Positions 1-36,430 of a stretch of 64,000 nt of DNA are shown in pieces. The DNA is from Candidatus Poribacteria bacterium (lineage in GTDB: Bacteria > Poribacteria > WGA-4E > WGA-3G). A program made the translations under genes and the position numbers. Numbering within the stretch: position 1 is the stretch's first letter; the number at the start of each line of letters is the position of its first letter. Location of the stretch: contig OZ251518.1 of NCBI GenBank assembly GCA_965242965.1, positions 4,160,001-4,224,000 on the forward strand, read 5' to 3'. The notes below the pieces were generated by a model. That model saw only the letters and a list, made by a program, of their open reading frames with translations, was not told where the DNA came from and searched no databases.

Positions 1-151
1 CGAATTGTGAGGCGACTTCCACCAAATCGAGAATGTTCACGATACCGTCGCGGTTTACATCGCCTGTGAGTTCAGGTTCAACTGCGACAAGGAGTGCACC
101 GAGACTTAAAACCATCAGCGCAATGACGATGCAAAGTGTTTTGCGTTTCAT
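1..151 (-). CDS. Secreted dockerin-type (EF-hand-like) domain protein, 5' part only (runs off window)
   Basis: Manual translation from ATG 151: MKRKTLCIVIALMVLSLGALLVAVEPELTGDVNRDGIVNILDLVEVASQF. Signal peptide plus dockerin motif GDVNxDGxVNxLDL; RBS GGAGG upstream. Not in the ORF track because it is truncated. Confidence 0.85.
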   Translation of the reverse strand, partial: MKRKTLCIVIALMVLSLGALLVAVEPELTGDVNRDGIVNILDLVEVASQF

Positions 152-292
152 TTAGATTCCTCCGTTAGAACGTTCGTTTTGGTTGCGCGCGAGTCAACGC
201 GCGCATACCGAAGATGCGTGGATGGGCACGGTGCCCGGCCATCTTCGTCTGTCTGAATCGCGGATTTACGAGATTATAGGAAAACATGCATC

Positions 293-528
293 GGGCCAGT
301 CCCAATGCAACACAAATAACCCGCCACGCAAAGAATGCGTGCGGGGTAGAAGACGACATGACGACGAAAGTCGCCGCTGTCAAGTGAATAAAATGTGCTT
401 AACGCCTGTGGGTGTCGGGGGGGGTCGAGCCTCCCCTCCGGGCATTAAGGTGAACGGGAACTCGTGACGGCGCGACAACGGGCATAGACGCACGGCAAAC
501 GTGCATCTCTCGGTACCCAAGCAGGTCT
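293..528. ncRNA. Candidate structured RNA motif, copy A (homologous to 34865-35092)
   Basis: Blocks TGCAAC / CCCGCnACGCA-loop-TGCGTnCGGG / GAAGAC / TTAACG / G8-TCGA / CGTGA..GCGCGA / GGTCT are shared with copy B in the same order, with compensatory changes in stems. Confidence 0.7.
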
Positions 529-647
529 ACGGCGACCTCATTAGCAATGGAAAAATCAATTCGCTGGTTCACGGTATTGTTCCTCGTGTTCGGTTTCGGT
601 TTCGCGGTGGCGCGTTTTTTTTCGCGCGTATCACCACGTTTGCAATT

Positions 648-854
648 ATTATACACGAAAAATGCAATAAATGTCAAACATTTTTTTTGCGAAAAATCGT
701 GGAAATGCTCACAATTAACCACATTCTACAAGAATTTCGGTTTTTTGTCAACGTTTTTCTGCGAAAAATAGTGAAAACAGTTAAATTCACGCGAAAAATC
801 GCCAAAAATGTTTAAAACTGATTTTATTTTAGCAAATGTCGCATTTTTTGTCAA
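648..854 (-). promoter_or_regulatory. Three tandem near-consensus sigma70 promoters
   Basis: TTGACA(672-677)-18-TATAAT(648-653); TTGACA(746-751)-17-TAGAAT(723-728); TTGACA(849-854)-17-TAAAAT(826-831). All face the dockerin gene. Confidence 0.75.
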
Positions 855-1035
855 GGTTATTTCGCGAAAAAAAACGCTGCTGCTACCGTAGCGCGGGGGA
901 CAGGCCCCCGCGATCTGCCGACCGAAACGAAAAACGTCCGCAGCCCAAGAGGCCATGGACGTTTTTTGAGATGATCGAGGCATGGCGAGGGACAGGCCCG
1001 CGCCCTACGTTTCGTGGCGCGATTTCCGCTTTTCC

Positions 1036-33957: not shown

Positions 33958-34782
33958 TTAGCGACGGTGGTAGGATTTCATCTTCCCCCATGTCGTCGCT
34001 AATTTCCCTTCGGCTTTGACGGCCAGAGCCCTATCCGGTCGTGTGCCGTTCGCCAGGTCCTGCACCTCGTCCTCAGACAACGCCCGATCCCAGATGATGA
34101 TCTCGTCAATCATGCCATCGAGGAAGGTATCGTTCCCAGCGTTGCCGCCAATCTGCCGACCTGCACCGATTTCTAGGGGACGATCCTTGAAAAGGTTGTA
34201 AGGTTCAGGCGCGACTTGTGGATTCGCTTGGCCGCTGGCGGGAATGTTGATTTTGCCGCCATCTTCCTGAACATAAGCGATGGCTTCCTCACCGTCCGCC
34301 GTTTGACAGACATGATACCACTCCTCGGCATCAATAACACCATCAGTCCGCATCCAGTTTTCGGTACCACCATTGGTTGTGCCGAAGGTCATGTCGGTAT
34401 TATTAAGCGTGAGGAGTCGGAAGGTGAAATTAGCCCCCCATCCAACTTTTTCGCCTTTCCAAACGCCGGCGTGGTCTGCACCGTTTCGGACGTAAAGCCA
34501 ATACGATACGGTATGCGGTCCTTCAATGGCGTTTTCAAGCCCGGCGTTGAAAGGCACCTCGGCACGCGTATCTTTGCTTCCATCTACGTCCAACGCCTTG
34601 CCAAACCTGCCTTTATCAACGACCTTGGCGGCTTTGAAGAGTTCGCCGTGGGCATCACCGATGGCATCGGTGACTTTTCCATCGTCAAACGTCCACGCGG
34701 CGATGACTCCATCGTTCAGGTCTGCCTGCACAGAACCAATCGCCAGCGCAACGACGAAAATGACTGAAATAAGAAATTTCAT
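33958..34782 (-). CDS. Secreted LamG-like jellyroll protein (tandem paralog of 32964-33803)
   Basis: Shares KGEKVGWGANF and DGMIDE..WDRALSEDEV with its neighbour; C-terminus VKAEGKLATTWGKMK. Confidence 0.9.
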   Translation of the reverse strand: MKFLISVIFVVALAIGSVQADLNDGVIAAWTFDDGKVTDAIGDAHGELFKAAKVVDKGRFGKALDVDGSKDTRAEVPFNAGLENAIEGPHTVSYWLYVRNGADHAGVWKGEKVGWGANFTFRLLTLNNTDMTFGTTNGGTENWMRTDGVIDAEEWYHVCQTADGEEAIAYVQEDGGKINIPASGQANPQVAPEPYNLFKDRPLEIGAGRQIGGNAGNDTFLDGMIDEIIIWDRALSEDEVQDLANGTRPDRALAVKAEGKLATTWGKMKSYHRR

Positions 34783-34864
34783 TTAATAAACCTCCTCTAG
34801 TTGAGAGAGTGGACAGAGAGACAAACCTCCGTCCAATAAATTTGTAGGGTGATAGGCCTCGGAA

Positions 34865-35092
34865 GAGACCTGGTGCAACGAAAGTAGCCCGCGACGCAGC
34901 GGCGTGCGTCCGGGCACGAAGACAGTTCAACGGGAAATCCCGATGCTGCCTTACAACGTAAGAGATTAACGGACGTAAAGTGAAGGGGGGGGTCGATTCT
35001 GCCTAGCCGATTGTTAAAACAACCGTCAGCACGTGAGCGCGCGAAAGGGCTGCGCGCTACGCCGCCCGGATGCGCGTGACAACTTCTGGTCT
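34865..35092. ncRNA. Candidate structured RNA motif, copy B (homologous to 293-528)
   Basis: Same ordered blocks as copy A; hairpins GCCCGCGACGCA/TGCGTCCGGGC, CGGG/CCCG, CTTAC/GTAAG, AGCGCGC/GCGCGCT. Confidence 0.7.
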
Positions 35093-35196
35093 TTTCGTCT
35101 CTGAAATTGATACGTGCGTTTCGCATGTCCATCACCTTACAGTTCCGTTCTGCTCCATAGATAGAAATTGTAGGTTTAATCCCACTTTTGTCATTA

Positions 35197-35225
35197 AATA
35201 TACATAAATTTTAATTTTTTGTCAA
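35197..35225 (-). promoter_or_regulatory. sigma70 promoter for the LamG pair
   Basis: TTGACA(35220-35225)-17-TATATT(35197-35202). Confidence 0.6.
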
Positions 35226-35336: not shown

Positions 35337-36430
35337 GCGGGTGTTTCATAATTCGTTCAACGTCGCGGTGACAGGCCCCTGCTACGGTAACACCTAAGAA
35401 ATCGTTCCCTTTAACGTAGGGCGAGGGCCTGTCCCTCGCCACGTATCAAGTTTTCCTTCTATACCGTAGGGCGAGGGCCTGTCCCTCGCCATGCACAGGT
35501 CTGAGCAGCAAACATCCGGGGTCTCTGGGTTGCAGGCGTTTTTCGCCGAGGTCGGCAGATCGCGGGGGACAGGCCCCCGCGCTACGGAAAAAAACGGCGT
35601 GCGTTACCGTAGGGCGAGGGCCTGTCCCTCGCCGTGCCTAAGGTCCTTTAGGTCCTTAATGTCTATAGATGAGCGGGATTAACGGCACCCTAAGGTCCTT
35701 TAGGTCCTTAATATGATTTTTCATGTCTTGTCTCCCGCACATTAAGGTCCTAACGGACCTTGAAAAGTTTGGCAGACCGGGGTTGCTATAGACATGCAGG
35801 ACCTAAAGGACCTGAAGAGGCATCCATTGCAAAAAAAGAATGCTCGTTGCGCGGGAGATAATCCTGGAAATCGTGTGAATCTTGTGAATCCTGCTTCAGA
35901 CGATTAAGATCGCGGGGGACAGGCCCCCGCGCTACGGTAACACCTAAGAAATCGCCCCCGGGCACCGTAGGGCGAGGGCCTGTCCCTCGCCGTGCCTAAG
36001 GTCTGTAAGACCTTAATGTCTATAGCATCTGCATCGCACAGCATCCTAAGGTCCTTTAGGTCCTTAATATGATTTTTCACGTCTTGTCTCCCGCACATTA
36101 AGGTCCTAACGGACCTTGAAAAGTTTGGCAGACCGGGGTTGCTATAGACATGCAGGTCTTAAAAGACCTGAAGAGGCATCGATTGCAAAAAGAGTGCTCG
36201 TTGCGCGGGAGATAATCCTGGAAATCGTGTAAATCTTGGAAATCCTGCTTCAGACACTTAAGAGCGCGGGGGACAGGTAATTTGTCTCGTCTCTGTAGTT
36301 CAGGATCGCCTGATCCTGACCCGTTCGGGAGCGGGCGCTCCCGAACTACAGCGGTGGGCCCGATGCCTTCCGGTATTCGCCCGCTCCCCAAGGGGGAATA
36401 AATACCGAAACGGAGTTATGAAACACCCTC
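35337..36430. mobile_element. Large MITE-like element (1094 bp) with internal duplication
   Basis: TIR GCGGGTGTTTCATAA / TTATGAAACACCCTC; perfect 9-bp TSD AAATTAACA; internal block ~35635-35900 is repeated at ~35993-36257. Confidence 0.85.

What the first reader, a model, noticed from the sequence alone, without database searches (positions are those of the whole stretch)
293..528. Candidate structured RNA motif, copy A: ~230 nt with covariation against a second copy 34.5 kb away
Seen: this intergenic stretch aligns with 34865-35092. Shared blocks in order are TGCAAC, CCCGCnACGCA-loop-TGCGTnCGGG, GAAGAC, a short hairpin, GCTG, TTAACG, exactly eight G + TCGA, CCG..TTAA, CGTGA..GCGCGA.AA.GGGC and GGTCT. 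The TGCAAC-to-G8 distance is 111 nt in both copies. Stems show compensatory changes: C-G in copy A vs G-C in copy B in the ACGCA hairpin, and CGAC-GAAA-GTCG vs CGGG-AAAT-CCCG. Loops and linkers diverge, and no REP or MITE sequence is present. Both copies sit in long (~400-490 nt) leaders between a strong sigma70 promoter and a secreted-protein gene (dockerin; LamG). Inference: a riboswitch-like cis-regulator or structured ncRNA family tied to surface-protein expression. I do not recognise it as a known riboswitch or ribozyme.
Basis: partly seen in the sequence, partly recalled or inferred. Interest (0 to 1): 0.88.

Follow-up and report, generated by a model that had tools for sequence, protein, structure and literature searches.

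The report
Multi-copy leader with poly-proline mini-gene
A roughly 350-base leader that sponge-associated Poribacteria place about twenty times per genome in front of secreted and repeat-protein genes holds a tiny gene ending in a run of proline codons followed by three RNA hairpins, so it looks like a translation-sensing valve for those genes rather than a riboswitch.

Summary
Copies A and B share the listed blocks, the 111-nt spacing and the compensatory stem changes. A profile built without B finds B at E 4.4e-12.

It is not a two-copy motif. The genome holds 21 copies. The 3' module occurs in 73 of 99 sampled genomes of one Poribacteria family and in 0 of 51 genomes of eight other families. 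No Rfam family matches.

The functional strand is the minus strand. Each unit has tandem sigma70-like promoters, then a 40-70 codon ORF with a Shine-Dalgarno site. Three hairpins follow (P1, terminator-like P2, P3). Covariation is strong: 22 of 27 pairs change on both sides.

The frame is kept open and 13 of 17 indels are multiples of three, but the peptide is barely constrained. A co-oriented gene follows all 43 copies examined.

Best reading: a portable leader-ORF attenuator gated by ribosome progress through the CCC run. The mechanism is inferred, and no expression data were available.

The parts
886..1009 (.). REP-like unit of about 125 nt that borders the cassette upstream; more than 100 copies in the genome
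   Evidence: blastn of the extended region against the own genome
826..854 (-). promoter-like site 1 (TTGACA, 17 nt, TAAAAT; 11 of 12 matches)
   Evidence: conserved in the paralogous copies
723..751 (-). promoter-like site 2 (TTGACA, 17 nt, TAGAAT; 11 of 12 matches)
648..677 (-). promoter-like site 3 (TTGACA, 18 nt, TATAAT; 12 of 12 matches), nearest to the leader; start of transcription inferred near 640
   Evidence: 4 sites found against 1.1 expected from shuffles
603..638 (-). 5'-terminal hairpin of the inferred transcript
   Evidence: centroid fold; sequence variants
580..585 (-). Shine-Dalgarno-like GAGGAA, 7 nt before the GTG start
   Evidence: present in the listed upstream stretch of nearly all of 35 copies
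399..572 (-). small leader ORF of copy A: GTG start at 572-570, 57 codons, stop TAA at 401-399
   Evidence: no Pfam family; 147 unnamed homologues in metagenomes
   Evidence: the pairs are almost invariant, so covariation neither supports nor refutes them
417..424 (-). C8 run (G8 on the + strand), read as ACC CCC CCC = Thr-Pro-Pro, five codons before the stop
398..449 (-). P0: stem CUUAAUGCC (449-441) with GGCGUUAAG (406-398). It encloses the C run, and its 3' strand holds the stop codon
   Evidence: folds; one-sided changes only, weak support
355..381 (-). P1: outer helix GACA/UGUC around the inner hairpin GGCGAC-UUUC-GUCGUC
   Evidence: all 9 pairs show changes on both sides in 45 distinct sequences
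320..345 (-). P2: 10-bp G+C-rich hairpin with one bulged G. It is strongly conserved in sequence and is followed by a U-rich tract, so it looks like a terminator
309..319 (-). U-rich linker, part of the near-invariant GCGGG-YUAUUU..GUUGCA block
   Evidence: invariant columns
288..308 (-). P3: 8-9-bp hairpin followed by UGUUUUCC; the conserved cassette ends here
   Evidence: (flagged as terminator-like, 309-287)
1..151 (-). start of the downstream gene of copy A (200 aa, signal-peptide-like N-terminus by eye, weak Dockerin_1 match below the cut-off)
35197..35225 (-). promoter-like site of copy B (TTGACA, 17 nt, TATATT; 11 of 12 matches)
34797..35132 (-). leader ORF of copy B: ATG at 35132, 111 codons. 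It has no stop at the TTAA block, runs through P1-P3 and ends 15 nt before the LamG gene
   Evidence: also long in the orthologues of G001 and G002
34985..34992 (-). C8 run of copy B (Asp-Pro-Pro in its frame)
34919..34952 (-). P1 of copy B (GGCAG/CUGUC around CGGG-AUUU-CCCG)
34887..34915 (-). P2 of copy B
34854..34871 (-). P3 of copy B (GGUCUC-UUCC-GAGGCC: different sequence, same place)
33958..34782 (-). downstream gene of copy B (274 aa, Laminin_G_3, E 2.8e-15)

Best explanation
Copies A and B belong to a portable 5' leader cassette that is specific to one family of Candidatus Poribacteria. Read on the minus strand, the cassette holds one to three strong sigma70-type promoters and a short translated ORF of 40-70 codons. 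The last codons of that ORF include an uninterrupted C run (Pro-Pro or longer), and a stop codon mostly follows within 26 nt. Then come three hairpins: P1, a terminator-like P2 with a U-rich tail, and P3 with a second U-rich tail. I propose that the cassette works in cis as a leader-ORF attenuator. How fast the leading ribosome passes the slow CCC-CCC codons would decide whether P2/P3 (or Rho) stop the polymerase, or whether transcription runs on into whatever gene lies downstream. Shown here: the repeat family, its distribution, its orientation towards genes, the conserved open frame and the covarying hairpins. Inferred: that the ORF is translated, that P2/P3 terminate transcription, and that the proline run is the sensor.
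For: Family and spread. There are 17 blastn and 22-23 nhmmer copies in the own genome. The covariance model R1 finds 21 own copies and matches 47 of 61 genomes of the family. In a phylum-wide sample it matches 73 of 99 genomes of family f1 and 0 of 51 of eight other families. Of 18 pattern matches in genome contigs, 16 are Poribacteria MAGs.

Action in cis. A same-strand ORF follows 18 of 18 own copies (at least 100 aa, starting 29-750 nt after the core) and 25 of 25 copies from other genomes (at least 110 aa, starting 17-500 nt downstream). The first downstream genes are unrelated to each other, so the cassette and not the gene is the conserved unit. Homology ends at window 276-286, except for one paralogue.

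Promoters. Three tandem sites match 11-12 of 12 positions, and the scan finds 4 sites against 1.1 expected.

ORF. Frame 0 is open in 31 of 34 aligned copies, against 1 of 34 and 1 of 34 for the other forward frames and 3-8 of 34 for the reverse frames. A GAGGAA motif and a GTG or ATG start at one alignment column are present in nearly all of the 35 copies listed. Of 17 distinct indel events before the C run, 13 are multiples of three; my binomial estimate for that is about 3e-4. In 42 of 42 model hits that have a C run, exactly one frame is open for 115-331 nt upstream of the run. Dinucleotide shuffles predict 14.8 of 40 where 40 of 40 are observed. The stop lies 3-26 nt after the run in 32 of 42.

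C run. It is uninterrupted in 42 of 45 hits although the rest of the ORF has diverged beyond nhmmer's reach. This points to selection on the letters, not only on proline.

Hairpins. 91.1% of cells are paired, and 22 of 27 pairs change on both sides. None of 500 shuffles reaches the observed values, and slid controls give 33-44% paired and 6-11 such pairs. Fold z-scores are -4.47 (A) and -3.52 (B). P3 is flagged as terminator-like.

Precedent from papers. CCC is the slowest proline codon, and CCC/U-C is frameshift-prone and selected against in ordinary genes (PMC8129111, passages). Stalling at polyproline uncouples translation from transcription and lets Rho or intrinsic terminators act (PMC5021804, abstract).
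Against: There are no expression data: no RNA run holds the stretch, so the transcript, its ends and translation are all unproven. I did not find an antiterminator structure that excludes P2 or P3, and I did not search for one systematically. P2 has a bulge and the simple scan does not call it a terminator. In copy B, P3 has no U-rich tail. The peptide is almost unconstrained: pN/pS is 0.80 against 0.99 and 0.81 in the two control frames, and variable sites per codon position are 48, 50 and 59. Avoidance of stops by substitution alone is weak evidence, because only 13 of 513 single changes make a stop and P(no stop) is 0.25-0.57 per lineage. In 10 of 42 copies, including copy B and both of its orthologues, the ORF has no early stop and runs through the hairpins. 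That does not fit one uniform mechanism. The copies are related, so all counts across copies overstate independence. The downstream genes have nothing to do with proline supply.
Confidence: 0.5

Rival explanations
1. RNA-only regulator. The leader is a riboswitch-like or protein-binding structured RNA. The open frame would be a side effect of RNA-level conservation and is not translated.
For: Conservation is at the nucleotide level. pN/pS is about 0.8 and variation is flat over codon positions. The hairpins covary strongly. The block GCGGG-YUAUUU..GUUGCA and the P2 loop are nearly invariant, which is more than a plain terminator needs. The C run is kept as letters. The predicted pairing of the Shine-Dalgarno site and start codon with 457-475 would hide the start.
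Against: 13 of 17 indels are multiples of three. Frame 0 is open in 31 of 34 copies against 1 of 34 for each other forward frame. The start switches between GTG and ATG at the same column behind a Shine-Dalgarno motif. Distant copies keep an ORF although their sequence is no longer alignable. The covarying part is three independent hairpins without a junction or a conserved internal loop that could form a pocket. The downstream genes share no pathway.
Confidence: 0.15
2. Stand-alone small gene. The cassette is a strongly expressed gene of its own, for a 57-65 aa basic peptide or a small RNA of about 330 nt, and P2/P3 are its terminators. The genes downstream are merely neighbours or are fed by leak-through.
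For: The unit has its own strong promoters, a Shine-Dalgarno site, an ORF and two terminator-like hairpins. Gene callers predict the ORF in many metagenomes: 147 proteins at E up to 0.01, mostly 57-65 aa. Genera g2 and g5 share a C-terminal peptide motif ending in NYKL-x-TPPP-xx-IR (read by eye).
Against: 43 of 43 copies point at a downstream co-oriented ORF, which a free-standing gene would not need. The peptide evolves almost neutrally in the subfamily tested. It has no Pfam family. In many copies no separate promoter is evident between P3 and the next gene, but this was only looked at by eye.
Confidence: 0.15
3. Phase-variable switch. The C run is a hypermutable tract whose length changes shift the leader ORF between a frame that stops early (off) and one that runs through the hairpins (on). 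This would give on/off variation of surface proteins.
For: Run length varies between copies from C5 to C13, and one copy has C34. The run is kept as a homopolymer. 10 of 42 copies are in a long frame. Three hits with a broken run (L051, L061 and the first L048 hit, run only C5) all have long ORFs of 154, 103 and 90 codons. The downstream genes are secreted or surface-type, as in classical contingency loci (recalled).
Against: In the own genome 14 of 21 runs are C8, and the C7 and C9 variants arise from substitutions next to the run that keep the frame, not from indels. The copy B orthologues differ as C8 versus C9 without a length change. The long open frame after the run is explained by low A content: shuffles reach it with P 0.07-0.74. 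The +1 and -1 frames show no consistent stop pattern (24 rows).
Confidence: 0.07
4. Selfish or neutral dispersed repeat. This would be a MITE-like element that happens to carry outward promoters, spread by transposition or by recombination at the REP-like units, with no regulatory role.
For: The own genome has 16 copies at 82-93% identity to copy A, while the best match in the congener G002 is 82%. That suggests spread or homogenisation within the genome. The 3' boundary is sharp at window 276-286, and a REP-like unit sits at the 5' side. One truncated copy exists (C1:31640-32119).
Against: Orientation towards a gene is fixed in 43 of 43 copies. The ORF and three hairpins are conserved across six genera. 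Copy B is kept at the same gene in three species. I did not search for terminal inverted repeats or target duplications, and I saw no transposase next to the copies.
Confidence: 0.08

Closest known systems
Leader-peptide transcription attenuators of amino-acid operons (trp, his, pheL type)
   Same: A short ORF in the leader with a run of one codon type near its end, followed by a G+C-rich hairpin with a U tract. Ribosome speed at the run is thought to set termination (his leader as described in PMC8129111; otherwise established knowledge).
   Different: The ORF here is 40-70 codons rather than 14-30. No alternative antiterminator pairing was found. The downstream genes are not proline-biosynthesis genes but unrelated secreted, TPR, cohesin/dockerin, LamG, protease and tyrosinase genes. 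There are about 21 dispersed copies per genome, each with its own promoter array.
Proline-codon leaders mgtL and mgtP of Salmonella, and EF-P-dependent coupling
   Same: Proline codons in a leader ORF, or polyproline stalls, decide whether transcription continues, through terminator hairpins or Rho (PMC5021804 abstract; PMC5299641 seen only in a search listing; mgtL/mgtP details recalled).
   Different: Those are single loci upstream of Mg2+ transport genes with very short ORFs. Here the proline codons form an uninterrupted C run conserved as letters, and the cassette is multi-copy and portable.
tnaC and other stop-proximal proline arrest peptides (SecM/RAGP and RAPP-type peptides)
   Same: Prolines close to the end of a regulatory ORF; a stalled ribosome controls downstream expression (recalled).
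   Different: The stop is 1-8 codons after the prolines, not directly behind them. The peptide has no signal or membrane segment in copy A (by eye). The downstream genes are not secretion-machinery or tryptophanase genes. Apart from the prolines the peptide sequence is not conserved across the family.
   Same: A structured non-coding motif restricted to Poribacteria (the existence of that motif is recalled, not checked).
   Different: No Rfam 15 family reaches its gathering score anywhere in the 64-kb window. None comes near either copy at E up to 10. The term 'Poribacteria-1' is in no paper of the searchable library, so I could not compare the published description directly.

Membership tests
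Any Rfam 15 family (riboswitches, ribozymes, leaders, Poribacteria-named motifs) | Covariance-model score at or above the family's gathering threshold | tested here: not met
   0 matches in the window at gathering thresholds. At E up to 10 only four chance-level matches near copy A and one near copy B, none on the element.
Leader-peptide transcription attenuator | Short ORF with a ribosome-binding site in the leader, kept open in evolution | tested here: met
   Translation itself is not shown.
Leader-peptide transcription attenuator | Cluster of regulatory codons near the end of the ORF | tested here: met
   The C run gives two to four or more CCC proline codons in 42 of 45 hits.
Leader-peptide transcription attenuator | Intrinsic terminator between the leader ORF and the structural gene | tested here: inconclusive
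   P3 with its U-rich tail is flagged by the scan in copy A. P2 is a G+C-rich hairpin with a UUAUUU tail, but its bulge keeps the scan from calling it. Copy B's P3 lacks a U tail. No termination assay was possible.
Leader-peptide transcription attenuator | Mutually exclusive antiterminator pairing that depends on ribosome position | tested here: inconclusive
   None appears in the consensus folds. I only inspected minimum-free-energy folds and made no systematic search.
Leader-peptide transcription attenuator | Downstream genes make or import the amino acid whose codons are sensed | tested here: not met
   Pfam finds dockerin, LamG, FRG+TPR, trypsin-like, TPR, coiled coil, tyrosinase and cohesin, and six proteins with no family.
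Riboswitch | Conserved multi-helix aptamer with invariant unpaired nucleotides, associated with genes of one pathway | tested here: not met
   Three separate hairpins without a junction. The downstream genes are unrelated. Ligand binding is not testable here.
Phase-variable contingency locus | Homopolymer length changes by indels between close relatives or within a population, switching the frame | tested here: inconclusive
   Lengths C5-C13 and one C34 occur across copies. Within the genome, 14 of 21 runs are C8 and the variants keep the frame. Population data were not usable.
REP or MITE-type dispersed repeat | Many dispersed near-identical copies with defined ends, terminal inverted repeats or target duplications, no fixed relation to genes | tested here: inconclusive
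   Dispersed copies and a sharp 3' end are met. The fixed orientation towards genes in 43 of 43 copies speaks against it. Inverted repeats and target duplications were not tested.

The most novel reading that the evidence does not exclude
The cassette is a plug-in, translation-gated attenuator. It would read the cell's capacity to decode consecutive CCC codons, which depends on tRNA-Pro(GGG) supply, m1G37 methylation or EF-P activity. Because it sits in front of about 20 dispersed genes per genome, it would tie a whole set of secreted and eukaryote-like repeat proteins of an uncultured sponge symbiont to that one signal. The regulon would then be defined by a mobile leader rather than by a transcription factor.
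Probability: 0.3. Interest if true: 0.8.

Novelty: new variant of a known kind. Interest (0 to 1): 0.62.

Why it matters
Poribacteria are uncultured sponge symbionts, and almost nothing is known about how they control the secreted, cohesin/dockerin, TPR, WD40 and LamG proteins thought to mediate contact with the host. This cassette is a common control element for about twenty such genes per genome, and it occurs in 73 of 99 sampled genomes of the family. It is small enough to test in a surrogate host. It joins features that are usually separate: a strong promoter array, a leader ORF whose letters matter more than its peptide, a strictly kept CCC run of the kind ordinary genes avoid, and three covarying hairpins. 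If the proposed gating holds, it would be a new form of leader-ORF attenuation and an example of a regulon spread by copying a leader. For annotation, it explains 147 or more unnamed 57-65 aa proteins in metagenome catalogues and supplies a covariance model for a family missing from Rfam.

Tried and rejected
Long read-through frame after the C run. At first sight 29 of 30 copies keep one frame open for at least 137 nt through P2 and P3. Dinucleotide shuffles reach the observed length with P 0.07-0.74 in 17 of 17 tested copies, because the region is poor in A. Different copies also use different frames through P2. I rejected this as evidence for a second coding frame or a programmed frameshift.

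Conserved +1 or -1 stop pattern. None was seen in the 24 rows printed before my script crashed on a regex. I did not repeat it.

Rare-codon idea. CCC makes up 20.8% of proline codons in 919 long ORFs, so it is not the rarest. C or G runs of 8 or more number 118 in the genome. That is below my back-of-envelope random expectation, so such runs are not a genome-wide feature.

Pairing of the transcript's 5' end with the GUUGCA block. It is seen in copy A only and is not kept in copy B or L054 (by eye). Dropped.

RiPP precursor idea. The bioRxiv paper on srp RiPPs in sponge bacteria (abstract only) concerns azole peptides with their own gene clusters. Nothing links it to this ORF.

Expression. No RNA holder was listed. 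Four runs were laid, but they are short Logan contigs of about 60 nt broken by the repeat. They show presence only. No indel was listed at 417-424, which proves nothing.

Literature. 'Poribacteria-1' gave 0 papers. 'Poribacteria' with 'leader peptide' gave 5 papers, none on this element judging by the 4 titles listed and the one abstract I read. 'Poribacteria' with 'riboswitch' gave 1 irrelevant paper. 'Poribacteria' with 'small RNA' and 'intergenic' gave nothing relevant among the 10 listed.

Rows left out. From the 48 model hits I dropped three with identical scores that duplicate other loci (L036, L097, L103), leaving 45 rows. For one search I further left out L033, both L048 hits, L051 and L061, leaving 40 rows. 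L062 was left out of the frame count, leaving 34 of 35, because its 5' part does not align. One search used 25 of the 26 loci L087-L112 (not L097, which is cut short).
Full report
**What is there**

Copy A precedes a gene that starts at window 151 and runs off the window. Copy B precedes the gene at 34782-33958.

A profile built from 17 other copies without B finds B at E 4.4e-12 genome-wide, so the likeness is not chance.

**Not two copies but a family**

- blastn with copy A finds 17 places in the own genome, 16 of them at 82-93% identity.
- nhmmer finds 22 places, plus one weak one.
- The covariance model R1, built from the 3' 141 nt, finds 21 places.

The repeated unit is about 600 nt (window ~276-870). 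It is bordered upstream by a REP-like 125-nt unit that is itself repeated more than 100 times.

R1 matches 47 of 61 genomes of the same family, in all six genera sampled, with 1-21 matches each. In a phylum-wide sample it matches 73 of 99 genomes of family f1 and 0 of 51 genomes of eight other families. A 23-letter degenerate pattern from the most conserved block hits 18 places among 185,579 species genomes, and 16 of them are Candidatus Poribacteria MAGs.

No Rfam 15 family matches. The searchable literature holds nothing on the element, but supplements were closed.

**It is a leader**

- In 18 of 18 own copies a same-strand ORF of at least 100 aa starts 29-750 nt after the core.
- In 25 of 25 copies taken from 25 other genomes, a same-strand ORF of at least 110 aa starts 17-500 nt downstream.

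The first downstream proteins are mostly unrelated to each other. Pfam finds dockerin (weak), Laminin_G_3, FRG plus TPR, Trypsin_2, TPR, a long coiled coil, tyrosinase, and cohesin with a type IX sorting-tail match below its cut-off. Six of the 13 proteins scanned have no family. Many begin with a hydrophobic, signal-like stretch (by eye).

The homology between copies stops at window 276-286, except for one paralogous locus. Thirteen of the 18 own copies share a further CU-rich module of about 200 nt that A and B lack.

**A small ORF inside the "RNA motif"**

On the minus strand, GAGGAA (585-580) is followed after 7 nt by GTG (572-570) and 57 codons, ending at TAA (401-399).

Evidence that the frame is kept:

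- In a 35-sequence alignment (own copies plus three related genomes), frame 0 is open in 31 of 34 sequences. The other forward frames are open in 1 of 34 each, and the reverse frames in 3-8 of 34.
- The start column switches between GTG and ATG.
- Of 17 distinct indel events before the C run, 13 are multiples of three. One of the four exceptions (L007) truncates the ORF.
- In copies too diverged for nhmmer to align their 5' half, an ORF of 40-70 codons still runs into the C run. All 42 of the 42 model hits with a C run have exactly one frame open for 115-331 nt upstream. Composition-preserving shuffles predict 14.8 of 40 where 40 of 40 are observed.
- The stop follows 3-26 nt after the run in 32 of 42.

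Evidence that tempers this:

- The peptide is hardly constrained. pN/pS is 0.80, against 0.99 and 0.81 for the same letters read in the other frames, and variable sites per codon position are 48, 50 and 59.
- Stop avoidance through substitutions alone is weak evidence.
- The copies are related, so the counts are not independent.

My reading is that what is selected is an open, translatable frame plus the RNA letters, not the protein. Gene callers have predicted the ORF widely: 147 unnamed homologues, mostly 57-65 aa. It has no Pfam family.

**The C run**

It is uninterrupted in 42 of 45 hits, with lengths from C5 to C13 and one of C34. In the own genome the lengths are C8 in 14 copies, C9 in 3, C7 in 2, C11 in 1 and C4 in 1. 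The C7 and C9 variants arise from substitutions beside the run and keep the frame. Synonymous proline codons never replace CCC, so the letters themselves are under selection.

According to passages of PMC8129111, CCC is the slowest proline codon in E. coli. CCC/U followed by C promotes +1 frameshifting and is selected against in ordinary genes. Its strict retention here therefore looks purposeful.

**The structured part**

RNAalifold on 18 sequences predicts three hairpins after the stop codon: P1 (381-355), P2 (345-320) and P3 (308-288). On 48 model-aligned hits (45 distinct), 91.1% of cells pair and 22 of 27 pairs show changes on both sides. None of 500 shuffles reaches the observed values, and slid controls give 33-44% paired and 6-11 such pairs. 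The alignment was fitted to the model, which favours the structure, but the margin is large.

- P2 and the following block GCGGG-YUAUUU..GUUGCA are nearly invariant in sequence.
- P2 is a bulged G+C-rich hairpin with a U-rich tail.
- P3 is followed by UGUUUUCC and is flagged as terminator-like.
- The single-sequence folds have z-scores of -4.47 (A), -3.52 (B) and -4.04 (whole A leader).

Two further helices are predicted but unproven. P0 (449-441 with 406-398) encloses the C run and holds the stop codon; it shows only one-sided changes. A second helix pairs the Shine-Dalgarno and start region with 457-475; it is invariant, so it is uninformative.

**How it probably works**

The conserved unit ends at P3 and is attached to unrelated genes with unrelated ribosome-binding sites. 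Its output is therefore most simply transcriptional, or acts on RNA stability, rather than hiding a start site. A leader ORF that ends in slow proline codons a few codons before its stop, followed by terminator-like hairpins, is the layout of a leader-ORF attenuator. Stalling at polyproline is known to uncouple ribosome and polymerase and to allow Rho-dependent or intrinsic termination (PMC5021804, abstract).

I therefore propose that ribosome progress through the CCC run sets read-through into the downstream gene. I give this 0.5. The direction of the effect, the role of P1 and P0, and whether Rho or P2/P3 acts are open questions.

Points against this reading:

- No antiterminator was found.
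- 10 of 42 copies, including B and its orthologues in two congeners, lack the early stop and read through the hairpins.
- There are no expression data.

**Rivals**

- An RNA-only regulator (0.15).
- A free-standing small gene or sRNA (0.15).
- A phase-variable homopolymer switch (0.07).
- A functionless promoter-bearing repeat (0.08).

The evidence for and against each is given in its own section.

**Verdict**

It is wrong in kind, because this is not a riboswitch-like two-copy motif but a multi-copy leader cassette built around a small ORF with a proline-codon run. I rate it a new variant of a known kind, with interest 0.62.

Noticed in passing
window 886-1009 and 35340-35640: REP-like units of about 125 nt built around GGGGGACAGGCCCCCGC-type palindromes, often in tandem. 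More than 100 matches in the genome. They border both leader copies on the upstream side.
   Followed up: partly
G000:C1, downstream of 13 of the 18 own copies (for example loci L002, L007, L008): A second conserved CU-rich module of about 200 nt follows P3 in most paralogous copies but is absent from copies A and B. Its role is unknown.
   Followed up: partly
L101 (minus strand), about 20-60 nt upstream of the model hit start: One copy in another genome carries an uninterrupted run of 34 C, giving 11 or more proline codons, instead of 8-13.
   Followed up: no
loci around the own copies, 1.5-3 kb downstream: The second or third gene after many copies belongs to a few paralogous groups: secreted WD40-like proteins, haem-peroxidase-like proteins and sulfatase-modifying-factor-like proteins (named by eye from sequence motifs, not scanned). 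The cassettes therefore sit in similar gene islands.
   Followed up: no
copies of genera g2 and g5, for example L094, L098, L108: GUUAAC-type palindromes occur just before the C run (GUUAAC-UAUAA-GUUAAC) and again 10-15 nt after it. They could pair in more than one way across the run.
   Followed up: no
window 640-870, minus strand: Each of the three promoter-like sites is preceded by a similar A/T-rich motif containing TTTTTCGC(G/A)AAA. It could be an UP element or a binding site for a regulator.
   Followed up: no
G000:C1:31640-32119: A truncated copy that keeps the promoters and the 5' half of the leader ORF but lacks the C run and the hairpins.
   Followed up: no
G004:C1:3192182-3192355 and 3192832-3192979: Two model hits lie in tandem about 650 nt apart on the same strand in a genome of another genus.
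   Followed up: no
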